64,000 nt of DNA, taken from IMG/VR virus record IMGVR_UViG_3300036785_000370, positions 7,991 through 71,990 of that record; one strand, written 5' to 3'. Below are positions 29 through 15,089 of this stretch, piece after piece (within the stretch, counting starts at the first letter, position 1; every line of letters begins with the position of its first letter). The notes under the pieces are model-generated. The model had not been told where the DNA came from. It worked only from the letters and a program-made list of their open reading frames with translations, and searched no databases. The translations under genes were made by a program, and so were the position numbers. The DNA comes from a virus.

Positions 29-1780
29 TTGACACTGGAACCGTTTAGACGGAATATCCGAGGCGTGGCTATTTCTGCTGACGCTCTGGCTCAACTCATC
101 GGCCAGCGAACGGTTCCTCAACCAGCCTACAAGATGCTCGATCGCATAGGCCAACAAACAACGCCGAGCAAAGCGGAGAGTATTATCGCGCAGCGATATC
201 AGAAGGGCGGTGTGGCGACGGACGAGAACGACAATCCATCATGGCAGCCGGCCCGAGGCGGTCGTACCGGATTAGAAGCGACGGCGCCAGAGAACGCGTA
301 TCAGGGCGGTGGCGTCGCCGCCTATAATGGTTCGCAGCTTGGGCAATACCTACCGTATCAGCGGGCAATGGCCGCACTTTACCCAACGCGACGATATCAG
401 GAAGGCGGCGTGGCGCGCAACCTGATGAGCGATCTCGGATACCAGCCTGATGAAATTCCGATGCAGCCCGAAAATCCGATGAACCAAGCCACAATGGCTT
501 ACGATCCATACAGTGATGAATACCGTTTTCGGAGGGACATCTATCCCAGACGGGAACCGATGCCGATAAGGTATCCAGAGAGAAAAGCGCCCGAGAAACA
601 ATTAAAGGGAGATTATCCAGTTTCGCTTTACGCTCAGGAGGGCGGCGTAGTCGATCCAAAGACAGGCAAAGTGGAAAGGAACTATGCCACCGAAAAAGCT
701 GGAGCGTATAACTACGTCGATCCACGCGCCAAAGGGATTCCTGCGCCGGCGTTAATGGGACAAGGCGCTGCGGCGTATGATCCGATGGCAGAGAGCAGGC
801 ACGGGTTAAGTGCTGGTGACTTAGCTTTCTTCGCGCAGCACCCCGATTTTGGGCCAGTTCACACCCCAGATGGAGTTTTTCACGTTACAGCCAACGGCCA
901 AATGGTGCCACATATACCAGAACAATCGATATCACCGGAAGATATGGCGCTGCTCAGTAGCATGGTCAGTGCCCCTTCCACCGGAGCAATGTTTAGGGGC
1001 GCCGGTGCTGGAAGTGATTATGCAGAGCCCACGCCGATCCCCGGTATGGTGCCCAAAAAGGAAACCGATAGCGGAATGGGCTTTCAGGGCGGCGGCGTGA
1101 TGCGCCCGATGGCATTTCAGGGTGGACAACGCGGCCGCGGCGGCGGCGACGATGGCATGGGGCTCGATGAGTTTGGAGCCAACAACATGCGCGAAACACC
1201 GCTATGGTTCGAGCAGGTTAGAGACATACTTAATCCTCCAAACCCCAACCAATTCCCGCCTGACATGCCTCCGATAGGTCCAGACACCAATTTGAATCCC
1301 GGAAGAAGCCGTGGCACTCCTCCGAAAACAGAGGAACACACAGGCGGCGTGATTAAGAGATATCAGGATGGCGGCGTGATTAATCCGGCCATGCTCCAAG
1401 CCATGATGAGCGGCCAGCGCGAACAGCAATCGTCTCCGGTCGCCGGCGAGCCATCCCAGAAAAAGCAAGCGCCACAGCCGTCACAGGGATCGTCAGGGAA
1501 ATACGAATTCGGCCCAGATATCTTCTATACCGCGCCCGGGATGCGAAGACTGATGGAAGAACAAGCGCAACAAGCGGCGGCCGCAACGCAGCAGAAGGGA
1601 ATGAAGGGCGGCGGCGTGGCAAAGATGCCGAAAGAATTTATGCGCTACCTGGCGAACGGCGGGATCGCGAAGGACTTTACGCCTCGCGACCATTTGATGT
1701 TTGCGCTCGGAGGGGTATATGCCCTAAGCCCGAAGCAAGCTGAGAAGACACTTCACCGCCATGATTCCCGAATTCGCTAA
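29..1780 (+). CDS. Low-complexity Pro/Gly/Gln/Met-rich protein with about 9 copies of a (Y/F)xxGGV motif; probable internal virion protein (may be 5'-truncated by the window)
   Basis: Long ORF with repeats YQKGGV, YQGGGV, YQEGGV, AQEGGV, FQGGGV, HTGGVI, YQDGGV, MKGGGV, LANGGI; start codon uncertain. Confidence 0.6.
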   Translation: MTLEPFRRNIRGVAISADALAQLIGQRTVPQPAYKMLDRIGQQTTPSKAESIIAQRYQKGGVATDENDNPSWQPARGGRTGLEATAPENAYQGGGVAAYNGSQLGQYLPYQRAMAALYPTRRYQEGGVARNLMSDLGYQPDEIPMQPENPMNQATMAYDPYSDEYRFRRDIYPRREPMPIRYPERKAPEKQLKGDYPVSLYAQEGGVVDPKTGKVERNYATEKAGAYNYVDPRAKGIPAPALMGQGAAAYDPMAESRHGLSAGDLAFFAQHPDFGPVHTPDGVFHVTANGQMVPHIPEQSISPEDMALLSSMVSAPSTGAMFRGAGAGSDYAEPTPIPGMVPKKETDSGMGFQGGGVMRPMAFQGGQRGRGGGDDGMGLDEFGANNMRETPLWFEQVRDILNPPNPNQFPPDMPPIGPDTNLNPGRSRGTPPKTEEHTGGVIKRYQDGGVINPAMLQAMMSGQREQQSSPVAGEPSQKKQAPQPSQGSSGKYEFGPDIFYTAPGMRRLMEEQAQQAAAATQQKGMKGGGVAKMPKEFMRYLANGGIAKDFTPRDHLMFALGGVYALSPKQAEKTLHRHDSRIR

Positions 1781-2216
1781 TCCCAGCGAGGAATTCAAAA
1801 GGCGCAACCCGCACATATTCCCGAAAGACATGCATTTTGGGAACGTGATGTGTTTTGATCCCAACCCTCCTCGCGAGCACGAGCCGACCAAAGCAGATCT
1901 CAAACTCGAGAAGCAGTTGCAGGATCAGATCGCCGGGCATCTTGAGATTAATGGCACGGTGGTGATCCGCTCGAGGATGGACAGAAAAACAACGACCCGC
2001 GTCGGGACGCCGGATCTTTTGTTCGCGCTCAAGGGCCGCGCGATCGCGATCGAGGTGAAGCGGCCGGGCCACAAGCCGAGCAAGGAGCAGCTCGAAATGA
2101 TGCGGCAGATGACCGCGAACGGGTGGCGCTGTTTCGTAATCGACGACTACGACGAAGCGGTAAAGACCATCAATAAATTATTTTTGGAATTCACTGTTGA
2201 CGCGACCGCGTCCTGA
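1761..2216 (+). CDS. VRR-NUC / PD-(D/E)XK nuclease (resolvase-like)
   Basis: E..LQ..I, GTPDL, IEVKRPG..PS.EQ and W...VI motifs typical of single-domain VRR-NUC proteins. Confidence 0.85.
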   Translation: MIPEFANPSEEFKRRNPHIFPKDMHFGNVMCFDPNPPREHEPTKADLKLEKQLQDQIAGHLEINGTVVIRSRMDRKTTTRVGTPDLLFALKGRAIAIEVKRPGHKPSKEQLEMMRQMTANGWRCFVIDDYDEAVKTINKLFLEFTVDATAS

Positions 2217-2244
2217 TGTATACGACTTGTTAAACGTATACATC
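2197..2244 (+). promoter_or_regulatory. Putative promoter with overlapping operator (10-bp perfect inverted repeat)
   Basis: TTGACG (2197) N16 TATACG (2219); GATGTATACG (2215-2224) N10 CGTATACATC (2235-2244), 3 nt before ATG 2248. Confidence 0.6.
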
Positions 2245-2247
2245 TCA

Positions 2248-2424
2248 ATGGCAAAACGAACCACTGTCGAGGTCCACCCGGTCGTTCTGAAGGCGATCCA
2301 GCTCATCGCCAAACGGCAGGATAGCAAAGTTAAAGCCGTATCAGACACGCTGCTGCGGTTCGCAATTCCTTACGAGAAACTGTTGTTCCCACCAATGAGC
2401 AAGAGGAGAGACGACGGCAAATAA
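2248..2424 (+). CDS. Small ribbon-helix-helix-like DNA-binding protein
   Basis: MAKRTTVEV (alternating beta strand) followed by two amphipathic helices; directly after an operator-like inverted repeat. Confidence 0.55.
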   Translation: MAKRTTVEVHPVVLKAIQLIAKRQDSKVKAVSDTLLRFAIPYEKLLFPPMSKRRDDGK

Positions 2425-2427
2425 TTT

Positions 2428-2700
2428 ATGATAAAAAAAGCAACAACAATAGCGGTCGCACTGGCCGCGGTAATCAGTGCAGCCTTCGGGCAAGGCTATC
2501 CACACACAATGCCTTACCAGGTCCGTCCCGACCAATTCGGTCGCGGATGGAACGTTTATCGGAACAATGATCCTGTGCCTTATCAGACGATTAGGCCGGA
2601 TCCATTCAGCCGCGGGTATGACGTTTATCACAACGGCATGCGCACGCAGACAATTCGTCCGAGCCAATTCAACCAAGGCTGGGACATTCAGAGTTACTAA
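2428..2700 (+). CDS. Small secreted protein with three internal repeats
   Basis: Signal peptide MIKK + hydrophobic stretch; three Q(V/TI)RPxxFxxG(W/Y)x(V/I) units. Confidence 0.65.
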   Translation: MIKKATTIAVALAAVISAAFGQGYPHTMPYQVRPDQFGRGWNVYRNNDPVPYQTIRPDPFSRGYDVYHNGMRTQTIRPSQFNQGWDIQSY

Positions 2701-2704
2701 CCAC

Positions 2705-3190
2705 ATGAGCAAACAAACATTCAAAAAACCACACGTCCCTGGGAGCCGCGCACTTGTAATCGTGCAAGGACATTTCCCGATGGTGGCCTCGGTCGAAGAT
2801 GCGACCGAGGATTTAACCATCGTTGTCACGGCCGCCGATTGCCGCAAAGGCATTGCTAAAAACCACACGCAATGTCCCGGCGCATTGGCAGCAGGTAGAG
2901 GCGCCGATGGCGCTATCATCTCTAAGCGGAGCGCTTACGTGATCAAAGGTCGCAAAGCGATCCGCTACAGAGTGCCGGAGCGCCTGACACGAGAAGAAGT
3001 CGCGGTCGACCGCGGCGGCTCGTTCCAGCCTGGAACATACGTTCTGAGTCATCCACACAAGGGTGAGAGATTAACCGAGCGCAAGACAGGCAAGACTCAC
3101 AATAAAAGCAACCGGACGAGCCCATCGTTCACACCGCATCTGACAGAAGGGATGCGAACTACGCTGGGGGGTCGCGTCCACATCAGCTAA
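2705..3190 (+). CDS. Hypothetical protein
   Basis: ORF from ATG 2705, just after the previous stop codon. Confidence 0.55.
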   Translation: MSKQTFKKPHVPGSRALVIVQGHFPMVASVEDATEDLTIVVTAADCRKGIAKNHTQCPGALAAGRGADGAIISKRSAYVIKGRKAIRYRVPERLTREEVAVDRGGSFQPGTYVLSHPHKGERLTERKTGKTHNKSNRTSPSFTPHLTEGMRTTLGGRVHIS

Positions 3191-3198
3191 AGACAAAA

Positions 3199-3233
3199 CC
3201 GGCGCGAGGTGAAAAAGCAAAACCTCGCGCCGG
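3199..3233. terminator. 12-bp GC-rich hairpin (terminator or RNA processing stem)
   Basis: CCGGCGCGAGGT N11 ACCTCGCGCCGG; a short U-tract follows only on the minus strand. Confidence 0.4.
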
Positions 3234-3273
3234 CCCGTCATGTCAACAACCACAAGAAAGGGATATTTATCAG

Positions 3274-4221
3274 ATGAACACTGAAAGAGCAATCGTAAAA
3301 CAAGAGGGGCCGGTGCTTTCGCCGGCGCTCCAACAACTGGCCGAATCGATTTCTCGATCGACCATCATACCGAAGGAATTCGCCGGCAGCCCGAGCAACT
3401 GCTTAATCGCATTGGAAATGGCGCACAGGATTGGCGCCGGCATTTTGCAGGTGATGCAATCGCTTTACATCGTGCATGGCAAGCCGAGTTGGAGCGGGCA
3501 ATTCATTATCGCGGCCGTAAACGCGACGAAGCGATTTTCGACGCTGCGATTCCATTTCAACGAGGATAAGACCGAGTGCTACGCATTCGCGAAAGATCAC
3601 GATGGCAACGAACTGAAAGGCCCGGCGGTCACCCACGCTATGGCAAAGGCGGAGGGCTGGTGGCAACGGAACGAGAAATGGCGCAACATGACCGAGTTGA
3701 TGATGACGTATCGCGCCGGAACCTTCTTCGGCCGCGTGTATGCGCCGGATGTTCTGATGGGTATGCGTGAGCAATACGAGGTGCTGGAGGCCGAGGTCAC
3801 GACCACAATTGAAGAGCCCAAGATTCCAAGCCAGACGACCAAGGACATGGTGGCGGAGGCTGGCGCCGGAAACGATCAGAAGCCAGCGGAAGAGAAGCCA
3901 AAAGCAGCGGCTGAACCTCCAAAACGCGGTGCCAAAAAAAAGCTCGAAGTAAAACCCAAAAAGACGGCAGAAGCTCCGCCGCTGGAAAGCAAGGTCATCG
4001 GCCCGAATCGACAGGCGCTGCGTGAGCGGCTGGCTGTGGGCGGTTACACCGAGGACAATTTCTTGCCGGTGGCCAATTACCAGGAATGGCTTGGGAAAGG
4101 CAAAGTATGGCAATCGATGGACGACGTTCCCGATGGGATGTTCGAACTGTTCCTAAATCCGGATGAATGGACGATTGTCCAAGAGCAACTGGAAGCGCAG
4201 CCTCGGCATACCAAAGATTAA
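3274..4221 (+). CDS. RecT-like single-strand annealing recombinase
   Basis: S.IIPK.F.G.P.NCLIALEMA.RIG...LQVMQSLYIVHGKPSW...W..M.ELM..YRA..FFGR.YAPD.LMG; a Cas4-like exonuclease lies two genes downstream. Confidence 0.8.
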   Translation: MNTERAIVKQEGPVLSPALQQLAESISRSTIIPKEFAGSPSNCLIALEMAHRIGAGILQVMQSLYIVHGKPSWSGQFIIAAVNATKRFSTLRFHFNEDKTECYAFAKDHDGNELKGPAVTHAMAKAEGWWQRNEKWRNMTELMMTYRAGTFFGRVYAPDVLMGMREQYEVLEAEVTTTIEEPKIPSQTTKDMVAEAGAGNDQKPAEEKPKAAAEPPKRGAKKKLEVKPKKTAEAPPLESKVIGPNRQALRERLAVGGYTEDNFLPVANYQEWLGKGKVWQSMDDVPDGMFELFLNPDEWTIVQEQLEAQPRHTKD

Positions 4222-4314
4222 AATGACGCCGCACCAGGCCGACGTCGTAATCTACCAGATCTACATGATCCTTTTTACATTGGGGATCATTGTGGGAATC
4301 CTGCTGAAGAAATT

Positions 4315-4740
4315 ATGAAGCTGTCCGACATGGAGAAAAAGCTCTTGATGTTGGCACTGGATAAGTCAGCAACGGACGACGAGGTCGCGGCCGCAGCAAA
4401 GAAATTTATCCGCTCGCTGCGGGAGCGATTCCCGTCTGGAGTTGAATTGATCAAGTCTCTTGAAACGGGCTTCGGAGATCCTCTGCCCGATGACATCGTC
4501 TTTGCTACCCGGGAGGCGGCTCAAGCAGCGGCGGACGCTATGAATCGTGGTTTCGGCGGCACTGTTTGGGGCGACATACTGAGAGAGGCTGCTGCGATGG
4601 GACGAAAGATGAAGGCGCAGCAAGCGGCCCAGCAAGCGGCCTACGGCGCACAGCAGACAGCTTTCCAGCAGCAGCAGAGAGCCCAGCAGGAGAGTTGGAC
4701 GGAGTACCTCCGTCGCCAAATGAAAAAGGATAAAAAATGA
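4315..4740 (+). CDS. Hypothetical protein
   Basis: ORF in operon, ATGA overlap with the next gene. Confidence 0.55.
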   Translation: MKLSDMEKKLLMLALDKSATDDEVAAAAKKFIRSLRERFPSGVELIKSLETGFGDPLPDDIVFATREAAQAAADAMNRGFGGTVWGDILREAAAMGRKMKAQQAAQQAAYGAQQTAFQQQQRAQQESWTEYLRRQMKKDKK

Positions 4741-5843
4741 GGGCAAGTAACGCGCGCCAGTGCCAGCTGTGCCCGGGCTCCGTGCGGATGCAGAAAGGGC
4801 TCCCTGATATCGTGACCAAGGAGAGCGAGCAGGGCGACAGGCTGCACGATTACAGCGCCCACCCAGAATACGAGCGCAAACTACTCTCCCCAGAGGAGCA
4901 GGATCTGTTGCGGATCGCGGATTGGTTAGAGAAGCAGGCATTCGATGCCATTGGAATCAAAGGCGCTTCTTATATCGAAAAGCGCGAGGCCGAAATGCAA
5001 GACGGTTCGCTTAGTGGTCACCCAGATCTAATGCGGATCTATGGCCACGGGCTGCTCGACACTCCACGCGACTCTGTGACCGTCATCACTGACAGAAAAT
5101 TCGGGTGGGCACCGGTTGCCCGGGCCGACGTCAATTTACAGATGCGGGTGTATGCGCTCTTGGCAACGACCCCAGACGTTTACGTATCGATCCTGCAACC
5201 GCGAGCGGCGTTGGCAGACAGGGTCACGATTGCGAAATACAACCCTGACAACAAAACCGATGCCCGATGGGAGATCGATGCCATCGTGAAAGCCACTGAA
5301 GCTCCTGATGCGCCGCTGGTCGCCGGGGAAGAACAATGTCGCTATTGCCGGGCGCGAGCGATCTGTCCGGCGTTGCGGGAGGCGATCTCGAAAGAGCTGG
5401 TGGTGTTCGACGATGATATGTCGCCAGAGCTGTCGAAGCGCGCTAAGTTAAGTCGAGTAGAAGCGCGCCTCGCGCAGGCGAAAGACGAGCAACTGGGGGC
5501 TCTGTTATCAGCCTGCGCGCTGGCGCGTCTTGTCAATGACCCTCTGGGGGACGAGATCCGAAGCCGGATCGCAGCTGGCCAGATGGAAGGCTACACGGTC
5601 GGCAAGGAGAGCGAAGTCCGCGTGATCACCAACGTCAGAAAAGCGGTATCACTGATTGTCCTAAACAGGATGCTTCCCCGGGATCGGGTATTAGAGCGAT
5701 GCGAGCTGTCGATTGGCGGCATCGAAGAAGAGTATCGAAAGGCCACCAAAGTCTCCGAGAAACAGGCTAAGGCGGACGTCAATAAAGTGTTAGCCGACGT
5801 GATCGTGATCGAGAATCGGAGAGGGCGGATTTTGAAAAAGTGA
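4737..5843 (+). CDS. Cas4-like / DUF2800-type PD-(D/E)XK exonuclease
   Basis: N-terminal CPGS, G..LH, GHPD...TDRKFG, Q...YA and C-terminal CRYC...ICP cysteine cluster. Confidence 0.8.
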   Translation: MRASNARQCQLCPGSVRMQKGLPDIVTKESEQGDRLHDYSAHPEYERKLLSPEEQDLLRIADWLEKQAFDAIGIKGASYIEKREAEMQDGSLSGHPDLMRIYGHGLLDTPRDSVTVITDRKFGWAPVARADVNLQMRVYALLATTPDVYVSILQPRAALADRVTIAKYNPDNKTDARWEIDAIVKATEAPDAPLVAGEEQCRYCRARAICPALREAISKELVVFDDDMSPELSKRAKLSRVEARLAQAKDEQLGALLSACALARLVNDPLGDEIRSRIAAGQMEGYTVGKESEVRVITNVRKAVSLIVLNRMLPRDRVLERCELSIGGIEEEYRKATKVSEKQAKADVNKVLADVIVIENRRGRILKK

Positions 5844-7056: not shown

Positions 7057-7511
7057 TGTTTCTCAAGAACTACACCTCTGACGTCCCAGTGCACCTGACC
7101 ATCGGGCGCATCGAACAGGTGCTGCTCCAGTGCGGGGTGAACGGCATAATGAAAGAGTATGGGCCAGACGCCAAGATCACCGCGATCACGTTTCGGTTGC
7201 CCGGGCCTGACGGGAAACCGCTGCATATCCGGTTACCTGCCGATGAAGATCAAGCGACTGAGGCGCTCTGGCGCGATTACTGCGGGAAGGTTAAACGGCC
7301 ACATAAAAAGAAAGAGGACTTTGCCGATCAGGGTGCGCGAACCGCGTGGCGGCTGGTGAAAGATTGGGTGGAGATCGAGATGTCTCGGCTCCAGCTGGGG
7401 CAGGCCGACATCGTGGAGATCTTCCTGTCCTACGTTCACGATGGTCGCCAGACGTTCTATGAGGCACTCAAGGAACAAAAATACGCGGGACTGCTAAAGG
7501 ATTCGAAATGA
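7056..7511 (+). CDS. Phage hypothetical protein (KNYTS... type)
   Basis: TAATG overlap start; KNYTS.V....TI..IE..L...G, AWR.VKDWVE. Confidence 0.65.
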   Translation: MFLKNYTSDVPVHLTIGRIEQVLLQCGVNGIMKEYGPDAKITAITFRLPGPDGKPLHIRLPADEDQATEALWRDYCGKVKRPHKKKEDFADQGARTAWRLVKDWVEIEMSRLQLGQADIVEIFLSYVHDGRQTFYEALKEQKYAGLLKDSK

Positions 7512-9220: not shown

Positions 9221-10111
9221 ATGGGTTTCGGCTCATTTGATCCAAACGCCTACCGTGCATTCGCTGCAAGCACGTCGGGAAAATCAACGCAGCAAATCTA
9301 TACATCGACCAAGCTCGATGATTACCTCAACCCGAAAGGAGTGAAGATCAGAGAATCTCGTGACAGCGACGATCATCCAAAGTCAACGCCACTCATCGTG
9401 GCTCTGGATGTCACCGGCAGCATGGGAATATTGGCAGACACCATTGCCAGGAAGGGACTGGGTGTGCTGTTCAACGATGTGATCGACCATGAACCAATCA
9501 CCGATCCACAGATCATGTTCATGGGTATCGGCGATGCGCGATGCGACCAGTCGCCGTTACAAGTCTCGCAATTCGAGAGTGACAACCGGGTTGTGGAGCA
9601 GCTGACGAAGCTGTACCTGGAGCATGGCGGCGGAGGGAACGCCGGCGAAAGTTACGATCTCTCGTGGTATTTCGCGGCGCGTCATACAGAGCACGACAGC
9701 CACGTGAAACGCGGGAAACGCGGGTATTTGTTCACAGTAGGAGACGAACCAGCGCCGCCGGGGTTAACAGTGGATCAGATCGCGGAGTTTATCGGGGACA
9801 AGATCGAAGTGAACCTTACGGCCAAGGAGCTGCTGAATGAAGCGCAGCGCACCTACAACGTGTTTCACATCGTGGTGGAGGAGGGCGGTGGCAAGAGTTA
9901 TCCGAACACGCTTGGATCATGGACTGATCTATTGGATGAGCGCGTGATTCGTCTACCGGATCACACGCAGCTTGGAGAAACAATCGTTGCCGCGCTATTG
10001 ATGGCCGAGGGCGCCGACAAACAGCGCGTAGCCACGAAATACGGGCAACTTGTTGGGAACGCGGTCGGCCATCTCCCGCGTGCTCGTCAGCCACGTTTAC
10101 TGCCAGCGTGA
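9221..10111 (+). CDS. von Willebrand factor A (vWA) domain protein
   Basis: MIDAS-like LDVTGSM, GIGD, GGGGN.GESY, FTVGDE. Confidence 0.85.
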   Translation: MGFGSFDPNAYRAFAASTSGKSTQQIYTSTKLDDYLNPKGVKIRESRDSDDHPKSTPLIVALDVTGSMGILADTIARKGLGVLFNDVIDHEPITDPQIMFMGIGDARCDQSPLQVSQFESDNRVVEQLTKLYLEHGGGGNAGESYDLSWYFAARHTEHDSHVKRGKRGYLFTVGDEPAPPGLTVDQIAEFIGDKIEVNLTAKELLNEAQRTYNVFHIVVEEGGGKSYPNTLGSWTDLLDERVIRLPDHTQLGETIVAALLMAEGADKQRVATKYGQLVGNAVGHLPRARQPRLLPA

Positions 10112-11169
10112 AGCGGGCTCGCGTCGTAATTGGAGCGAACTTCGGCGACGAAGGTAAAGGGCTCCTCGTAGATTACCTTTGCATGGATGGCGCAGAGGCC
10201 GTTGTTCGCTTCAATGGCGGCGCAAACGCCGGGCACACCGTTGTTCTACCCGACGGTGTCAGGCATGTTCATCGCCATTTTGGATCTGGCACGCTTCGGG
10301 GGATACCGACTTACTTGTCTGAGTTTTTTGTGTGTAACCCGATTCTTTTCTTCAATGAGTTAAAGGAGTTGCAGACGTTAGGTCTGAAGCCAGTTGTGTT
10401 TGCTCACCCCGATTGCTTGGTCACCACCTTCATCGACATGATTATTAATCAGGAGAAGGAGACAAGACGAGGAGCAAAGCGGCACGGTAGTTGCGGGGTT
10501 GGGCTATGGGAAACTGTGATCAGATCGAAGATTCCTGAATTAAAAATTACCTATGCCGATTTGATGTTTAACCGACACACTCTGGAAGCCAAGCTGTTGA
10601 GGATCTGCGGAAAATGGTCGCAATATCGCATTGGCCGAAAGATTCAGGAGCCAGAAGCAATCGAACACTTTCTGAAATGTTGCGAAGCGTTCCAGTGGTA
10701 TGTTGAGCCCGGTGGAATAGGCCGGTTCAACGACGTCATCATGGAAGGAGCGCAAGGGTTGCTGCTTGATCAAGATAACAAGCAGATGCAGCCGCATGTG
10801 ACCGGGTCGTCGACGGGAATGACAAATCCCGAGATCTTGTTTCAGCGCGGTGATTTTAATGAGGTGGAAGCTTATTACGTTTCCAGAACCTATCTTACCC
10901 GGCACGGTGCTGGATTATTGCCAGGCGAGGATTCGCAGTTGAGCTACGTGGATGACACGAATATCGATGGGCCGTGGCAGGGGCGGCTGCGTTTTGCTCC
11001 ATTGGATGACGCACTGAAGCTTCGCATTGCAGCAGATGCGGCTGGGGTTCCACACGAACTGGTTCTTACTCATTGTGATCAACTGACTCCGCCAACTATC
11101 GCTGACCTCTATTCATCGGGTTCAACGCATCTGGATGTGAGTCAAGCTGCTGAGACCATAATGGTATGA
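10108..11169 (+). CDS. purA: Adenylosuccinate synthetase-like protein (short PurA-like form)
   Basis: GANFGDEGKG P-loop, RFNGGANAGHT, EGAQGLLLD, PHVT.S.TG, TRHGAG. Confidence 0.8.
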   Translation: MKRARVVIGANFGDEGKGLLVDYLCMDGAEAVVRFNGGANAGHTVVLPDGVRHVHRHFGSGTLRGIPTYLSEFFVCNPILFFNELKELQTLGLKPVVFAHPDCLVTTFIDMIINQEKETRRGAKRHGSCGVGLWETVIRSKIPELKITYADLMFNRHTLEAKLLRICGKWSQYRIGRKIQEPEAIEHFLKCCEAFQWYVEPGGIGRFNDVIMEGAQGLLLDQDNKQMQPHVTGSSTGMTNPEILFQRGDFNEVEAYYVSRTYLTRHGAGLLPGEDSQLSYVDDTNIDGPWQGRLRFAPLDDALKLRIAADAAGVPHELVLTHCDQLTPPTIADLYSSGSTHLDVSQAAETIMV

Positions 11170-11420
11170 AAGGGAAACGCACATTCGCAAGAGACGCTAC
11201 GGAGCTACGAAGAGCGCTCATCGCTGAGATAAAGAAGCGGCCGCATATCGACGGCCGGGTGGGCGTCATCGTTCTGCAAGACATGGCTTACGAGGCCGCT
11301 GTGATCGTCCACGGCAAAGAAGGCGCCATCGATTTTATAAGTGGGCTGATCAATATGCGGGCAAGCAACCCGATCAAATATCCGTGAATTTTTCCCCCAG
11401 GACGCAACAACCAACCACAT

Positions 11421-12020
11421 ATGAAAGAAAAACAAAAAGGCATGGAAGTAAAGATAACGTTCAAAGAGGAAATCCTCGGGACCGCCTCCGGCGATCCCAA
11501 GATCCACACTGAATTCGTTATCAGCAAAGCACCCGATGCTAAGACCCTCGAAGAGGAAGTCGCGGCGATCGGCGTTGAAGGAGTAGTGGAAAAATCGAAA
11601 TCGATATTTCCGAAGGAGAACGGGAAACCGTTTCTTTATGATTACCAAATTAAAGGGTTTTTCAAGGGAGCTTGCAGCGCGCTCGCCAGGGTGCCTGACA
11701 CCTTGAGCAGCAAGCTGAAGGCATACAAGAAGGTGATAGACGGGACCATCTTCGTGTTTCCTCGGAAGATATTCTTCAATGAGATCCATGACATTGGAGA
11801 ATGCCAGAGGCCGCTGCGAGTTCAGACGCCACAAGGTGAAAGAGTCGCACTGGCCAACAGCGAAACGCAACCGTCGGGAAACTCGATTACCTTTAGTGTG
11901 CTGTGTCTTAACAAAGACAACATCGCGCTGGTGGAAGAGTGGCTCGACTACGGTGAGCTCTCTGGGATCGGTCAATGGCGCAATAGCGGCAAAGGCCGGT
12001 TCACCTGGGAAAAATGCTAG
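11421..12020 (+). CDS. Stand-alone RAMP / Cas7-like RNA-binding protein
   Basis: N-terminal strand MEVKITFKEEILGT, YQIKGFFK (RAMP IKG helix), thumb-like RPLRVQTPQGERVALANSE, C-terminal glycine-rich loop GIGQWRNSGKGRF; no CRISPR-type cas operon around it. Confidence 0.75.
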   Translation: MKEKQKGMEVKITFKEEILGTASGDPKIHTEFVISKAPDAKTLEEEVAAIGVEGVVEKSKSIFPKENGKPFLYDYQIKGFFKGACSALARVPDTLSSKLKAYKKVIDGTIFVFPRKIFFNEIHDIGECQRPLRVQTPQGERVALANSETQPSGNSITFSVLCLNKDNIALVEEWLDYGELSGIGQWRNSGKGRFTWEKC

Positions 12021-12709
12021 GGCAAGGGAGCGTCCGGCAGTGCGGTGTAAAGGCGTAGCACAGTGTGGCGTTGTAAGGCGTAGCAAAGGCGTAGCTATGA
12101 GCAGCGATGCCAAGGCAGGGCGCCGAGCGGAGCGGCTTCGAACAGACTAGCAATGGGCAAGGCAAAGATGCGTAGGGTGCGTAGGGCGATGCGACGCAAA
12201 GGCAATGCGTATCCCAGCAAGGTTCAGCATAGCAAGGGCAAGGCTAAGGCCAGCACGGCAACAACAATGCAACGGACAGCACTGCGGAGCTGCGGGCAGG
12301 GCGACGAAGATTGTGGCTCGGCCGAGCAATGCGGTGCATTGGCACTGCTCAGAAGCTCAATGATCGGTCCCGCGCGGCAAAGCAAAGGCAAAGCCAAGTT
12401 AGCAGCGCGCCGCGCAGCCCAGCAAAGGCAAAGCATGGCAAGGCGGCGAGACGACGGGCACAGCAAAGGCTCGGCCCAGCTTAGTAGCGCGACGCGACGC
12501 AAAGGCAAAGCCCAGCTAAGTAACGCGCAGCGAAGGCAAGGCCCAGATTGTTGGCGACGCAAAGCGAAGCTGTGTCAAGCAAAGGAAAAGCGAAGACTAG
12601 AACCGACGAGCACAGCAAAGGCGCGCCAGGGCGCTGCGAGGTGGTGCGGGGCACTGCAAAGCGAAGGCACCGAACAGCACTACGGAGAACTGCGAAGCAC
12701 AGCAAAAGG
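12021..12709 (+). ncRNA. Pentamer-periodic array (NNNG[C/A/T])n punctuated by AAAGGC-like hexamers; putative guide-RNA array for the RAMP protein
   Basis: 12049 AAAGGC GTAGC ACAGT GTGGC GTTGT AAGGC GTAGC AAAGGC; 12465 AAAGGC TCGGC CCAGC TTAGT AGCGC GACGC GACGC AAAGGC. The periodicity is directly visible; RNA function is inferred. Confidence 0.7.
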
Positions 12710-12723
12710 GGACACACCTTCCA

Positions 12724-12990
12724 GTGAGATGGATCTTCACATCAACAGTTGATCCGACGAAACTGGAAGGTGTTGTCTCGAGCCGATGCGGCCGTTTCGT
12801 CGCTTACTCGCGTTCGTTACGCAAGTGGTTCATGGTCTACCCGGGTGGCGAGACGCCGATCGCCGAGCCCGAAATGATCCTGGTGGACGAGGACTGGGCC
12901 CGAGCCAACAGGAATTTAAGCAAAGTGGTAAAATTCGAAAAGCCGCGGGGCCGCCGGCGGAAAAGTCAGCAACTTATATTGGATCTATGA
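12724..12990 (+). CDS. Hypothetical protein
   Basis: ORF resuming just after the array; ATGA overlap with a downstream small ORF ending at 13184. Confidence 0.5.
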   Translation: MRWIFTSTVDPTKLEGVVSSRCGRFVAYSRSLRKWFMVYPGGETPIAEPEMILVDEDWARANRNLSKVVKFEKPRGRRRKSQQLILDL

Positions 12991-13246
12991 GTGGAATCAA
13001 AATTAGAAGCCTTCGGCGCGAGCGCATCCACAAGGAGAAAGTGATCGCTAAATTGGAAAAGCTCCGGATGCTAAAAGCTAATCTGGACACCTGGGAGTCG
13101 ATGCCAAATCCTGATTACGATTACCTCCGAGAACTGAGGGCACGAATTAGGTCGGTCGAGACGCAATACAACGCGATGGCGTGAAATTTTTTGGCTGCAA
13201 TGCATTTTCCTTTTGACAGCGCCGTATACATCCGCTCAATGTCTTT

Positions 13247-13352
13247 TGTGCGTTTCAAACGATGCAACTCTACACACCAAATCTCTGGTCGGCGGTCGGG
13301 TAGGAAACGCACACCTCGGGTCTCATACCCGGCGCTCGACTGTCGATCAGAG
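13247..13352 (+). ncRNA. Structured RNA (three-way junction) whose loop is complementary to an upstream site; C4/CI antisense-like
   Basis: 18-bp stem 13283-13300 / 13335-13352 with 4 G-U pairs, enclosing hairpins 13302-13316 and 13317-13331; GAAACGCACA (13304-13313) is the reverse complement of TGTGCGTTTC (13247-13256). Confidence 0.6.
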
Positions 13353-13373
13353 GCTTGGTAGGTAGGCGCACCA

Positions 13374-15089
13374 GTGTCGATTCTGAAGGTTAAACCACCG
13401 GCATCTTCGGGGCCGAAACTTCAGGTCAAAGACACCCCTTATAAACCGCCGGCGCCGCGCGAGGATACCCCACAAACTGAGGTCCCAGCACCCAGGGGCA
13501 ATGAACTAGCACGAGAACTCCAGAACGATATTAAGACCGCTGCGGCCGCAGGAAGCAAATCGCGAAAATCTAAGCAGCAGGAATCACTCGAGGGGCTACA
13601 ATCCCAAGAATCCGAACAGGGTGTCATCGGTTCGATGCTCACTGAGCCAGAGGTCGCGATCCCAGTCGTCTTGAACAGGCGTATTTCCAAATGGGAATTC
13701 TTCAACCCGATTCATCAGACACTCTTTGTGGCATTGATCGATATGTGGGAAAGCGCCGTTAAAGTCGATCTGGTAACGTTCACGCAGTATCTGCGCGACC
13801 AGAAGATCCTCGATCAAGTCGGCGGTGCGGGGAATATCACGCAGTTTTTCGCGTTCGTGCCGACGGCAGCCAACGTTGATTATTACATCGACACCCTGTT
13901 CGAGAAAAAGGTGCGCCGGGACCTCTATAACCTGAGCAACCGGATGGGCCGGGCCGCGATCGGTGTCACCGAAGAAAGTTCCGACGAACTGCTGACCAAA
14001 TTTGCCGGCCAATATGAGCGCATGTTTAGGTTTACCAAGAACTCGGGGTTCGAGGACGCAGCGCATCTGCTCAACGGGGATAAACCGGTGCCCCCGATCC
14101 AGATCGTGCGCAAAATTGTGCACCGCGGCAGTAAGCTGATCTTGGGCGGCGGATCTAAAACGCAAAAGACCTGGGCCTTGATGGCGCTCGCGCTCTCGGT
14201 GTCCACTGGGAGTGACTGGTGGGGATTTCACACGCATCGAAGCCGAGTTTGTTACATTAATCTTGAGCTCCAAGACTGGTCATTCCACGAACGGCTCGTC
14301 GCAGTCGCTTCCAAGATGGACGTTAAACCGGAGGAGGGCTGGCTCCAGGTGCTTAACCTCCGCGGGCACGCGCAATCGATCGAAGATTTGCGCCGGCACT
14401 TTGCCATGATGCTCAAGAGCGGGTTTTTCGCCCTGGTGATAATCGATCCTGTTTACAAAGTTCTTGGCGGCCGCGACGAGAACAAGGCCGGCGACGTCGC
14501 GACGCTCCTCAACGAGGTGGATCGCATTACGGTCGAGGTCAACGCCGCGGTGGCTATGGCGGCGCATTTCAGTAAAGGCAACCAGGCCGCGAAAGAGTCG
14601 CTGGATCGAATCGGCGGCTCTGGGGTGTTCTCTCGTGATCCAGACTCTATCCTAACCATGACGCCGCACGAGGACTCCGACTGCTTTACTGTCGAATCAA
14701 CGTTACGTAATTTGCCGCCCATATCGCAGTTCGTGGTGCATTGGGATTACCCAGTCTTTATTCGCGAAGAGGAAAAGAATCCAGGTCGCCTGAAAGGCAC
14801 CCCTGGAGCCAAGCCACAATGGTCCGAGAGCCATATAATTGAGCAGATGAGCATCATTAACGGCTGGGCAACGGCGAAGTTGGCGAAGCGCTTGGCTGAC
14901 GAAAAAGGGATGTCCCGGGCGACCTTCTACCGGTTACTAACCAAGCTCGAGGACAACGGCAAAATTCAACGGCAAGAAGACGGCTTATGGTATAAAGTTT
15001 CTCAGGTCTCACAATCCGCTGAAAACAAATCTGAGAATAGTGAGACAAATCAGTCTCAAGATGTCAAAAACGAATCTGAGACATTATGA
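13374..15089 (+). CDS. Replicative helicase: DnaB N-terminal domain fused to RepA/AAA_25-type ATPase, with C-terminal HTH-like region
   Basis: EQGVIGSML...HQTLF...DLVT...VGG...VPTAANV.YY (DnaB-N); Walker A-like GGSKTQKT; Walker B LVIIDP; AHFSK, GSGVF; C-terminal SRATFYR. Confidence 0.8.
   Translation: MSILKVKPPASSGPKLQVKDTPYKPPAPREDTPQTEVPAPRGNELARELQNDIKTAAAAGSKSRKSKQQESLEGLQSQESEQGVIGSMLTEPEVAIPVVLNRRISKWEFFNPIHQTLFVALIDMWESAVKVDLVTFTQYLRDQKILDQVGGAGNITQFFAFVPTAANVDYYIDTLFEKKVRRDLYNLSNRMGRAAIGVTEESSDELLTKFAGQYERMFRFTKNSGFEDAAHLLNGDKPVPPIQIVRKIVHRGSKLILGGGSKTQKTWALMALALSVSTGSDWWGFHTHRSRVCYINLELQDWSFHERLVAVASKMDVKPEEGWLQVLNLRGHAQSIEDLRRHFAMMLKSGFFALVIIDPVYKVLGGRDENKAGDVATLLNEVDRITVEVNAAVAMAAHFSKGNQAAKESLDRIGGSGVFSRDPDSILTMTPHEDSDCFTVESTLRNLPPISQFVVHWDYPVFIREEEKNPGRLKGTPGAKPQWSESHIIEQMSIINGWATAKLAKRLADEKGMSRATFYRLLTKLEDNGKIQRQEDGLWYKVSQVSQSAENKSENSETNQSQDVKNESETL

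What the first reader, a model, noticed from the sequence alone, without database searches (positions are those of the whole stretch)
11421..12709. Solo RAMP/Cas7-like gene plus pentamer-lattice RNA array: candidate minimal RNA-guided system in a phage
Seen: a 199-aa ORF with RAMP hallmarks (IKG helix motif, thumb-like hairpin, terminal GxGxxRxxGxGRF loop). Its stop codon is followed directly by about 690 nt with strong 5-nt periodicity. There is no CRISPR array and no cas1/2/3/5/6/8/10 in the window. Known: Cas7-group RAMPs polymerise along guide RNA with a fixed number of nucleotides per subunit. Inference: one subunit binds each pentamer through the invariant G(C), the variable bases are displayed, and the result is a discontinuous targeting code. 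With no associated nuclease, a likely role is repression of host or rival-phage genes, or anti-CRISPR action. I recall reports of phage RAMP plus short-period repeat RNA systems (VIPR-like, GGY/NN); I cannot verify that here, and this array's consensus differs (NNNGC with hexamer punctuation).
Basis: partly seen in the sequence, partly recalled or inferred. Interest (0 to 1): 0.97.

Follow-up and report, generated by a model that had tools for sequence, protein, structure and literature searches.

The report
Phage VIPR system with GY-NNN guides
A soil phage carries a small Cas7-like protein gene followed directly by an array of five-letter repeats, a further example, with an unusual repeat grammar, of the VIPR RNA-guided systems first described in 2026 preprints.

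Summary
ORF 11421-12020 (+, 199 aa) is followed from its stop codon by about 690 nt with 5-nt periodicity (lag-5 identity 0.447; 1000 shuffles give at most 0.335). This is the only such tract in the window.

The protein folds as a Cas7/Csm3-type RAMP (VIA Z 12.3; Foldseek 3e-8). It aligns full-length, weakly, to the solved SUSP1 Vipr protein (hhalign E 2e-5). In 157 of 160 homologue loci a same-strand pentamer tract touches the gene, and no other neighbour is conserved. The 72-kb virus record has no Cas1, Cas2, Cas3-HD or CRISPR array.

So this is a VIPR-type system (Vipr plus vrRNA array), a class already in print in four 2026 bioRxiv preprints and noted in at least 466 other genomes by this scan, including this protein family.

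It differs from the characterised type II:
- Pentamers are G-Y-N-N-N, with one fixed G instead of GGY.
- About 17 short units of 4-9 pentamers end in GCAAN plus one extra G, so spacing is 5n+1.
- There are no inter-unit tails and no vap gene.

YNNNG repeats and staggered arrays are named in the first preprint. I could not decode the targeting rule or find targets. I rate it a new member of a known kind, of moderate-to-low interest.

The parts
11421..12020 (+). vipr-like gene: 199-aa solo Cas7/Csm3-type RAMP. An alternative start lies at M8 (11442).
   Evidence: ORF. AF2 model has pLDDT 79.6 and pTM 0.73, with beta1, a two-helix insertion, helix-1 (74-88), a thumb hairpin (126-150) and a G-loop (178-193). 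Foldseek matches type VII Cas7 8z4j_J at E 3.2e-8. VIA gives Z 12.3 to 8yhd_A and Z 11.8 to Csm3 6ae2_B. hhalign of family profile A2 against SUSP1 Vipr gives prob 76%, E 2.3e-5 over the full length. It is the only copy in the 72-kb record.
12021..12709 (+). vrRNA-like array: about 137 G-Y-N-N-N repeats in about 17 units. It starts directly after the stop codon, on the gene strand.
   Evidence: Lag-5 identity 0.447. Parse gives 114 pentamers and 16 hexamers, G 94%, C 72%. There are 17 clean runs holding 101 pentamers. There is no period 3 (lag-3 identity 0.255). The tract is not more folded than shuffles (z +0.43). Rfam gives no match. No + strand terminator-like site was found between 11633 and the array end.
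12428..12467 (+). Example guide unit: 8 pentamers ending in GCACA GCAAA, followed by the extra G at 12468.
   Evidence: Parse. Boundary motif GCAANGG at 12422 and 12463, spacing 41 = 5x8+1.
12469..12503 (+). Example guide unit: 7 pentamers ending in GCAAA, followed by the extra G at 12504.
   Evidence: Boundary motifs at 12463 and 12499, spacing 36 = 5x7+1.
12505..12534 (+). Example guide unit: 6 pentamers, followed by an extra G.
12709..12779 (+). Strong hairpin directly after the last repeat. It may be a 3' end, a cap or a terminator-like element. No T-run follows it.
   Evidence: Fold of 12695-12800 gives -41 kcal/mol, z -3.77; 1 of 200 shuffles folds as well. No common distal element was seen in the 15 relatives inspected, so its role is inferred.

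Best explanation
This is a VIPR-type RNA-guided system of a soil phage.

**Inferred mechanism, by analogy with SUSP1.**
- The vipr-like gene and the array are transcribed together on the + strand.
- The RAMP protein polymerises on the RNA, one protomer per five nucleotides.
- Each protomer sequesters the fixed G-Y of a repeat, through the conserved G-loop Trp186 and Arg187.
- The bases between the fixed pairs are displayed and specify a DNA target in a gapped register.
- Binding represses a competing phage, satellite or prophage gene. No nuclease gene is conserved beside it.

**Grammar specific to this clade.**
- The first G of the canonical GGY is free, so the repeat is G-Y-N-N-N.
- Guides are short, 4-9 repeats, and are chained head to tail.
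- Each unit ends in GCAAN plus one extra G. This creates a canonical GGC at each junction and shifts the register by +1.
- I infer that this shift delimits separate filaments or processing sites.

**Shown here:** the fold, the array, its grammar, the conserved gene-array linkage, the viral context, and the absence of the four cas families searched (Cas1, Cas2, Cas3_HD, Pfam RAMPs) and of a CRISPR array.

**Inferred:** transcription, RNA binding, DNA rather than RNA targeting, repression, and how many of the three variable bases are read.
For: **Fold.**
- The AF2 model matches Cas7 and Csm3 over its whole length. Foldseek gives 175 PDB matches at E<=1e-3, with type VII Cas7 and Csm3 at the top. 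VIA gives Z 12.3, 11.8 and 11.7, and 33 chains at Z>=8.
- A model of a SUSP1-type Vipr (pLDDT 95.4) has the same order of secondary-structure elements. Its nearest PDB neighbours are also Csm3 and type VII Cas7.

**Homology to Vipr.**
- hhalign of family profile A2 against SUSP1 Vipr gives prob 76%, E 2.3e-5, columns 7-205 against residues 2-192.
- A2 against the SUSP1-family profile A3 gives prob 78%, E 1.8e-5 over 47 G-loop columns.
- In that alignment SUSP1 W178 and R179, which the structure preprint (section 5) reports as contacts of G2 and Y3, align to the near-invariant W186 and R187. The G1 contacts H17 and D177 align to T21 and Q185. This fits an array that keeps only one G.

**Linkage of gene and array.**
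- 79 of 80 viral loci and 79 of 80 genome loci have a lag-5 tract.
- In 157 of 160 loci the tract is within 400 nt of the gene: 101 downstream, 41 upstream, 15 on both sides.
- 172 of 173 adjacent tracts are G-rich on the gene strand.
- None of 8 neighbouring window ORFs recurs in the 80 viral loci. No neighbour family is shared by more than 39 of 81 loci.

**Grammar across the family.** Of 858 spacings between GCAANGG motifs, 580 are 1 mod 5. The commonest spacings are 31, 26, 36 and 41 nt.

**Guide content.** No window of three pentamers from this array recurs in any other locus.

**Context.** The genome is an IMG/VR virus record with CheckV completeness 100%. The neighbours are RecT, an exonuclease, a PurZ-like gene and a DnaB/primase.

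**Published mechanism.** bioRxiv 10.64898/2026.04.26.720920 (Results, Discussion, sections 18 and 20) and 10.64898/2026.04.26.720927 (sections 5 and 6).
Against: - Sequence similarity to the characterised Vipr is weak. tblastn of the window protein does not reach SUSP1 (4 records hit, none SUSP1). An HMM of the family finds nothing in the SUSP1 genome at E<=10.
- Against PDB sequences the family profile hits type VII Cas7 (5.8e-6) and Csm4 (3e-4), but not the deposited SUSP1 Vipr 36pp. By sequence the G-loop therefore looks more CRISPR-like than SUSP1-like.
- No vap gene, no inter-unit 3' tail and no pseudoknot were found, unlike type II.
- Three of 160 homologue loci lack an adjacent tract: L058, L113 and L158.
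- No target, and no preference for any skip rule, emerged over shuffled controls.
- I could not see the preprints' supplementary tables or figures. I therefore cannot say whether this clade is one of the seven published types.
Confidence: 0.88

Rival explanations
1. The architecture is the same (RAMP filament on a pentamer RNA), but the complex recognises RNA transcripts rather than double-stranded DNA. This would resemble its nearest solved structural neighbours, Csm3 and type VII Cas7.
For: The top structural matches are RNA-targeting Cas7 proteins. The family profile hits type VII Cas7 and Csm4 G-loops but not SUSP1 Vipr in PDB sequences.
Against: The DNA-binding SUSP1-type Vipr has the same PDB neighbours, so neighbours do not discriminate between the two. 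The residue after beta1 that is Asp in the window (D25) is not conserved; the family consensus there is LGTASANP. That a conserved Asp is the Csm3 cleavage residue is recalled, not tested. No partner nuclease is conserved.
Confidence: 0.08
2. The tract is a DNA-level element, such as iterons, a replication origin or curved DNA next to the DnaB/primase gene. Its position beside the RAMP gene would then be incidental in this phage.
For: It lies about 660 nt upstream of the DnaB/primase gene at 13374-15089. Lag-10 identity is also raised, at 0.386.
Against: The tract follows the RAMP gene, not the helicase. The linkage holds in 157 of 160 loci with unrelated neighbours. Strand asymmetry holds in 172 of 173 tracts. 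The +1 punctuation has no meaning for a duplex-DNA site.
Confidence: 0.02
3. The tract encodes a low-complexity basic protein, the 199-aa ORF at 12153-12752 (+).
For: An open frame covers most of the tract.
Against: There is no period 3: lag-3 identity is 0.255 against 0.447 at lag 5. T makes up only 71 of 689 bases, so stop codons are rare by composition. The product has no PHROG family. The 16 one-base insertions would break any conserved frame.
Confidence: 0.01

Closest known systems
VIPR type II of Escherichia phage SUSP1 (Vipr, vap1, four vrRNAs; PDB 36pp; bioRxiv 10.64898/2026.04.26.720920, .720927 and 10.64898/2026.10.15.759431)
   Same: - A solo RAMP of about 195-200 aa with the same order of structural elements.
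- G-loop Trp-Arg conserved.
- A pentamer array on the gene strand next to the gene; in SUSP1, lag-5 tracts flank genes 28031-29061.
- Phage-borne, with none of the four cas families searched and no CRISPR array.
   Different: - GY/NNN here, against GGY/NN in SUSP1.
- Units of 4-9 repeats joined directly with a +1 step, against 9-16 repeats followed by a structured tail of tens of nucleotides.
- No vap1.
- The G1-contact residues are replaced (H17 to T21, D177 to Q185), and the residues aligned to the Y3-pocket residues E71/M72 are F80/F81.
- Sequence similarity is detectable only at profile level.
Other published VIPR types and non-canonical arrays
   Same: The first preprint lists 'NNNGG, YNNNG and NNNNG repeats' (section 20) and 'staggered arrays with overlapping vrRNAs' (Results and the legend of fig. 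S18). YNNNG read in tandem is the same as G-Y-N-N-N. A 1-nt overlap between successive vrRNAs may be the same thing as the 5n+1 spacing seen here. bioRxiv 10.64898/2026.10.21.760802 (passages and section 33 read) reports 21 period-5 clusters with non-GGY cores, such as WGT/NN and TGH/NN, next to Vipr-like folds.
   Different: I could not see figs S16-S18, data S4 or fig. S10. Identity with a named type is therefore not established. No targeting rule for any non-GGY/NN array is given in the text I read.
CRISPR class 1 backbone subunits: Csm3/Cmr4 (type III) and type VII Cas7
   Same: Best structural matches: Z 12.3 to 8yhd_A and Z 11.8 to 6ae2_B. The profile hits the type VII Cas7 G-loop at E 5.8e-6. 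These proteins polymerise on guide RNA with a fixed step.
   Different: There is no CRISPR array, and none of the four cas families searched. The RNA step implied here is 5 nt. That CRISPR backbones use a 6-nt step is taken from the first preprint's Results, not tested here. The guide is a repeat lattice, not a spacer.

Membership tests
VIPR system (Vipr + vrRNA) | Minimal RAMP protein with an RRM core, thumb hairpin and glycine-rich loop | tested here: met
   AF2 model. Foldseek and VIA matches to Cas7/Csm3 cover residues 1-199. G-loop GIGQWRNSGKGRF is at 182-194.
VIPR system (Vipr + vrRNA) | Sequence homology to described Vipr proteins | tested here: inconclusive
   hhalign gives E 2.3e-5, prob 76%, over the full length against SUSP1 Vipr. 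Profile against profile gives E 1.8e-5 over the G-loop only. tblastn, a family HMM on the SUSP1 genome and hmmsearch against PDB 36pp find nothing.
VIPR system (Vipr + vrRNA) | Adjacent tandem pentanucleotide repeats with fixed scaffold bases alternating with hypervariable bases | tested here: met
   The scaffold is G-Y (G 94%, C 72%) rather than GGY. This is the YNNNG variant named in section 20 of the first preprint.
VIPR system (Vipr + vrRNA) | Gene-array linkage conserved among homologues | tested here: met
   157 of 160 loci, from two independent collections.
VIPR system (Vipr + vrRNA) | Non-CRISPR context, mostly viral or proviral | tested here: met
   Virus record with CheckV completeness 100%. 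No Cas1, Cas2, Cas3_HD or Pfam RAMPs matches. No CRISPR-like repeats. Other cas families were not searched.
VIPR system (Vipr + vrRNA) | Accessory vap gene ('typically' present; six vap genes for seven types) | tested here: not met
   None of 8 window neighbours recurs in the 80 viral loci. No neighbour cluster is near-universal. The preprint does not treat vap as obligatory.
VIPR system (Vipr + vrRNA) | Invariable structured 3' tail after each repeat tract (type II) | tested here: not met
   Units abut directly. Only one hairpin follows the whole array. No common distal element was seen in 15 relatives.
VIPR system (Vipr + vrRNA) | vrRNAs expressed and co-purifying with Vipr | not testable with these tools
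   This needs small-RNA sequencing and pull-down of the expressed locus.
VIPR system (Vipr + vrRNA) | Gapped recognition of dsDNA (1-nt skip rule) leading to repression | tested here: inconclusive
   Searches of up to 1744 unique runs against 2.9 Mb of flanking DNA under target periods 3-6, reading 2, 3 or 4 bases per repeat, gave no excess over shuffled guides. No self-target stood out.
CRISPR-Cas class 1 effector (Cas7 as part of a cas operon) | CRISPR repeat-spacer array and partner cas genes | tested here: not met

The most novel reading that the evidence does not exclude
This QIKGFFK...GQWRNSGKGRF clade may be a large, mostly metagenomic branch of VIPR that uses a different code from the solved one.
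- It holds 7220 protein clusters at 90% identity and 1661 at 50%. Its members lie in phages and prophages of gut Clostridia and Coriobacteriia and in soil.
- Only G-Y is sequestered. The former G1 position is free and may be read, giving 3 of 5 guide bases per protomer and a target step that is still unknown.
- Guides are minimal, 20-45 nt with no tail, and are chained by a one-base register shift at a GGC junction.
- Its G-loop is closer in sequence to CRISPR Cas7 and Csm4 than to SUSP1 Vipr. It could therefore lie nearer the Vipr-to-CRISPR transition than the characterised type.
Probability: 0.25. Interest if true: 0.6.

Novelty: new member of a known kind. Interest (0 to 1): 0.35.

Why it matters
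It adds a complete soil-phage example to a class that is only months old.

The useful residue is the grammar. It is a two-letter scaffold with three free positions, short tail-less units, and a +1 junction that recreates GGC. This goes with replacement of the two protein residues that hold the first G in the solved SUSP1 complex. That pairing of protein change and repeat change is a concrete, testable structure-code covariation.

If the third free base is read, the clade would offer a denser and shorter guide format than type II. It would also show that the VIPR code is evolvable.

The clade is abundant: 7220 clusters at 90% identity, and 133 confirmed stretches from a scan of one genome for each of 185,579 species. 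Its rule and targets would therefore explain a lot of phage-phage conflict in gut Firmicutes.

Tried and rejected
**Targeting rule and targets**
- I parsed the arrays of 160 homologue loci and the window into 2081 clean runs, 1744 of them unique.
- I searched their variable bases against the array-masked flanks (2.93 Mb, both strands). I tried reading 3 bases with target period 3, 4, 5 or 6, reading 2 bases with period 3 or 4, and reading 4 bases with period 4, 5 or 6.
- Exact seeds showed no clear excess. For 15-nt windows at period 3, 17 of 2902 distinct windows hit, against 11.0 +/- 3.5 in 20 order-shuffles and 7 when reversed. Periods 4, 5 and 6 gave 6, 18 and 15.
- The first excess at period 5 was unmasked array remnants.
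- Allowing up to 2 mismatches over whole units of at least 6 repeats (665 units), period 3 gave 1/0/36 hits at 0/1/2 mismatches, against 0/1/28 shuffled. Period 4 gave 0/0/13 against 0/1/27.
- Single matches are at chance level and I do not claim them. They are the window unit at 12089 matching 15/15 inside a 314-aa ORF of two gut-phage loci, L103 to L156 at 18/18, and L053/L080 to an 83-aa ORF in L095.
- There is no self-target. The best match fractions of 12 window units equal those of shuffled units.
- Two exact-match scans of IMG/VR with 21-nt strings under the contiguous-triplet rule found 0 stretches each.

**Indirect tests of which bases are read**
- Sense stop triplets in positions 3-5 are depleted (339 observed, 478 expected). 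Most of this is TAG together with its complement CTA, which fits general TAG avoidance.
- Among 322 near-identical unit pairs, differences fall 109, 66, 67 and 91 at positions 2 to 5. This weakly suggests that positions 3 and 4 are more constrained.
- Codon-position composition mapping favoured 'sense, in frame' in 27 of 59 loci. However, all three positions track GC alike and best resemble codon position 2. All of this is inconclusive.

**Other negative or blank results**
- Expression: no RNA holder is listed. One DNA run, a soil metagenome and possibly the source, holds the stretch. I did not lay reads.
- Self-association of the protein: complex prediction with 2 copies returned no verdict.
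- Rfam at E<=1 on 11000-13400 gave 0 matches, so there is no hammerhead between units.
- No conserved accessory gene was found.
- I inspected the 110 nt after the last parsed run in the window genome and 15 relatives. Four relatives show strong hairpins (z -3.3 to -8.5), one of them a clear intrinsic terminator (L088), but there is no common element.
- Pfam and PHROGs do not know the protein. phmmer against PDB gave only E 0.31 to type VII Cas7.
- The fold library (entries to 8 April 2026) does not hold a Vipr structure. A SUSP1-type model did not retrieve one. The lack of a Vipr hit for the window model therefore says nothing.
- P0312, a marine-sediment protein in the SUSP1 clade, is X0TDZ5, not the preprint's seed X1U2U4. 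The three NCBI members of the window's family that I looked up carry no accession.
- Supplementary files of the preprints were not opened. Figs S16-S18 and data S3/S4 may already assign this clade to a type.
Full report
**Observation**

The ORF at 11421-12020 (+) encodes 199 aa. It contains YQIKGFFKG and ends with the loop GIGQWRNSGKGRF.

From the base after its TAG stop to about 12709 the sequence has a marked 5-nt period. Identity is 0.447 at lag 5, 0.386 at lag 10 and 0.374 at lag 15, against 0.215-0.255 at lags 1-4. Over 1000 mononucleotide shuffles the maximum is 0.335 (z 10.1), and over 200 doublet-preserving shuffles it is 0.329.

The 16 best-scoring 300-nt windows of the whole 64 kb all start at 11851-12601. 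Nothing else in the window comes close.

There is no period 3. The 199-aa frame at 12153-12752 is explained by T-poverty, since T makes up 71 of 689 bases. Its product matches no PHROG family.

**Anatomy of the array**

- A five-state parse with re-estimated emissions gives 114 pentamers, 16 hexamers, 5 tetramers and 2 heptamers.
- Position 1 is G in 94% and position 2 is C in 72% (A 13%, T 12%). Positions 3-5 are variable and A-rich.
- The hexamers are not random. They are nearly all GGCNNN and follow a GCAAN pentamer.
- The motif GCAANGG occurs 12 times in the tract, with spacings 61, 67, 46, 36, 37, 113, 40, 41, 36, 80 and 36 nt, mostly 5n+1.
- The tract is therefore a chain of about 17 units of 4-9 G-Y-N-N-N repeats (excluding the run at 12765 that lies outside the array). 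Each unit ends in GCAAN, with one extra G that creates a canonical GGC at the junction and moves the register by +1. There are 17 clean runs holding 101 pentamers.
- As RNA the tract is no more structured than shuffles (z +0.43).
- A strong hairpin follows it at 12709-12779 (-41 kcal/mol, z -3.77).
- No terminator-like site on the + strand separates the gene from the array.
- Rfam finds nothing.

**The protein**

- Pfam and PHROGs have no model for it.
- The AF2 model from a 48-sequence alignment has pLDDT 79.6 and pTM 0.73. It shows beta1, a poorly predicted two-helix insertion (31-58), helix-1 (74-88), a long beta-hairpin (126-150) and a C-terminal loop (178-193) before the last strand.
- Foldseek against the PDB gives 175 matches at E<=1e-3. 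The top matches are type VII Cas7 (8z4j_J, 3.2e-8) and Csm3.
- An independent all-against-representatives alignment gives Z 12.3 (8yhd_A), 11.8 (Csm3 6ae2_B) and 11.7, with 33 chains at Z>=8. All 32 of the top-ranked rows are CRISPR RAMPs; the first non-RAMP chain is at rank 33.

**Is it a Vipr?**

VIPR systems are in print. The first preprint (bioRxiv 10.64898/2026.04.26.720920) describes a solo RAMP (Vipr) with vrRNAs of YNNGG repeats. It also describes a 1-nt-skip rule on double-stranded DNA, transcriptional silencing of rival phages and satellites, and seven types. I read its Results, Discussion and sections 18 and 20, plus figure legends by search. The second (10.64898/2026.04.26.720927, sections 5 and 6 read) gives the filament structures.

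I fetched phage SUSP1 (KT454805.2). Its vipr gene (28474-29061, minus strand) and vap1 are flanked by lag-5 tracts. Its protein is PDB 36pp.

Direct sequence searches do not connect the two proteins:
- tblastn of the window protein against 50,697 phage records hits 4 unannotated 'Bacteriophage sp.' records, and not SUSP1.
- A 92-sequence family HMM finds nothing in the SUSP1 genome.
- The same profile against PDB sequences hits type VII Cas7 (5.8e-6) and Csm4 (3e-4) but not 36pp.

Profile methods do connect them:
- hhalign of the family against SUSP1 Vipr gives prob 76%, E 2.3e-5, collinear over the whole length.
- Family against SUSP1-family gives prob 78%, E 1.8e-5 over the G-loop.

A model of a SUSP1-type Vipr (pLDDT 95.4) has the same succession of elements. 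It has the same nearest PDB neighbours, and it retrieves no Vipr entry. This shows that the fold library simply lacks one.

I conclude that the protein is a remote relative with the same architecture. Whether the preprint's PSI-BLAST set and its seven types include this clade I cannot tell without the supplement.

**A covariation worth noting**

The structure preprint (section 5) gives these contacts in SUSP1:
- G1 of GGY is read by H17 and D177.
- G2 is held by thumb R138 and stacked on W178.
- Y3 sits in a pocket made by E71, M72 and R179.

In the hhalign alignment, W178 and R179 align to W186 and R187, which are invariant or near-invariant in this family. H17 and D177 align to T21 and Q185. 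E71 and M72 align to F80 and F81.

The array has lost exactly the first G, so GGY-NN has become N-G-Y-N-N. This is inference from an alignment, not a structure, but it is directly testable. The equivalent of thumb R138 is unresolved; the hairpin has invariant R130, R133 and R141.

**Linkage in relatives**

- The family is large. There are 7220 clusters (90% identity) at E<=1e-3 among 7470 candidates; all 120 listed lack a Pfam domain, and any source name is 'hypothetical protein'. There are 1661 clusters at 50% identity.
- In IMG/VR, 535 of 578 candidate stretches encode a relative.
- In a scan of one genome for each of 185,579 species, 133 of 143 candidate stretches do. Most lie in MAG contigs of Clostridia (Oscillospiraceae, Lachnospiraceae and others) and Coriobacteriia.
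- Of the 80 + 80 loci kept, 79 + 79 have a lag-5 tract.
- In 157 of 160 the tract lies within 400 nt of the gene: 101 downstream, 41 upstream, 15 on both sides. L058, L113 and L158 are the exceptions.
- 172 of 173 adjacent tracts are G-rich on the gene strand.
- The +1 punctuation is a family trait. 580 of 858 motif spacings are 1 mod 5, and the modes are 31, 26, 36 and 41 nt.
- Nothing else is conserved around the gene. None of 8 window neighbours recurs. The commonest neighbour cluster is a small ORF that looks like an XRE-type HTH by eye (not tested); it occurs in 39 of 81 loci, about 1.35 kb upstream.
- The array content is unique to this phage.

**Context**

The window is 7991-71990 of a 71,990-bp IMG/VR virus record with CheckV completeness 100%. 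The module sits in a + strand early or DNA-metabolism block:
- an endonuclease/resolvase-like gene, RecT and an exonuclease;
- a PurZ-like adenylosuccinate-synthetase homologue directly upstream;
- a DnaB/primase gene downstream.

Cas1, Cas2, Cas3_HD and Pfam RAMPs are absent. There are no CRISPR-like repeats.

**What I could not establish**

The rule and the targets remain open. Local searches under periods 3-6, reading 2, 3 or 4 bases per repeat, showed no excess over shuffled guides. There was no self-target, and two exact IMG/VR scans were empty. Indirect tests of whether the third free base is read were inconclusive. Expression could not be addressed with the data on hand.

**Comparison and verdict**

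This locus works like a VIPR, and by fold, array and linkage it belongs with VIPR. It differs from the characterised type II in scaffold (GY against GGY), unit length, absence of tails and absence of vap.

The first preprint names YNNNG repeats and staggered, 1-nt-overlapping arrays. A fourth preprint (10.64898/2026.10.21.760802; passages and section 33 read) reports non-GGY period-5 arrays next to Vipr-like folds. A third (10.64898/2026.10.15.759431; abstract and passages read) deals only with type II.

This scan has also noted VIPR-like loci in at least 466 genomes, including this protein family.

I therefore rate it a new member of a known kind. The boldest reading still open is that this abundant clade uses a different, denser code and lies closer to CRISPR Cas7.

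Noticed in passing
window 10108-11169 (+): This is an adenylosuccinate-synthetase homologue of 353 aa (Pfam PF00709, E 1.7e-37). Its best PHROG is phrog_1211, annotated '2-aminooxy adenylosuccinate synthetase' (E 1.6e-51), so it is PurZ-like. The phage may replace adenine by 2-aminoadenine in its DNA. I did not look for datZ, mazZ or dpoZ.
   Followed up: partly
window 1761-5843 (+): A recombination block lies upstream: an endonuclease/resolvase-like ORF (phrog_93), RecT-like (phrog_561, E 3e-53) and an exonuclease (phrog_69).
   Followed up: partly
window 12709-12779 (+): A 71-nt hairpin with a 17-bp outer stem lies directly after the array (z -3.77). No T-run follows it. No common distal element was seen in 15 relatives.
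   Followed up: partly
L007:1314-1640 and 38 other loci, about 1.35 kb upstream of vipr, mostly opposite strand: A small ORF that looks like an XRE/cI-type HTH repressor by eye recurs in 39 of 81 loci. In many gut phages this vipr clade therefore sits next to the lysogeny-control region. I did not test the ORF against Pfam.
   Followed up: no
family profile A2 against PDB sequences: The clade's G-loop (GxGQWRNSGKGRF) scores against type VII Cas7 (5.8e-6) and Csm4 (3e-4), but not against the deposited SUSP1 Vipr 36pp. This may bear on where the clade sits between Vipr and CRISPR RAMPs. I built no tree.
   Followed up: partly
L088, about 7273-7320: A textbook intrinsic terminator (GC-rich stem followed by a T-run) sits on the gene strand right after the array of this relative (z -8.5). 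This fits transcription of the arrays in the gene's direction.
   Followed up: no
L095:2933-2947: The complete variable part of a unit shared by L053 and L080 matches 15 of 15 inside an 83-aa ORF. The ORF looks like a Cro/cI-type HTH by eye (not tested) and lies on a Clostridia MAG contig that also carries a vipr locus. The match is at chance level on the counts, so it is only a lead.
   Followed up: partly
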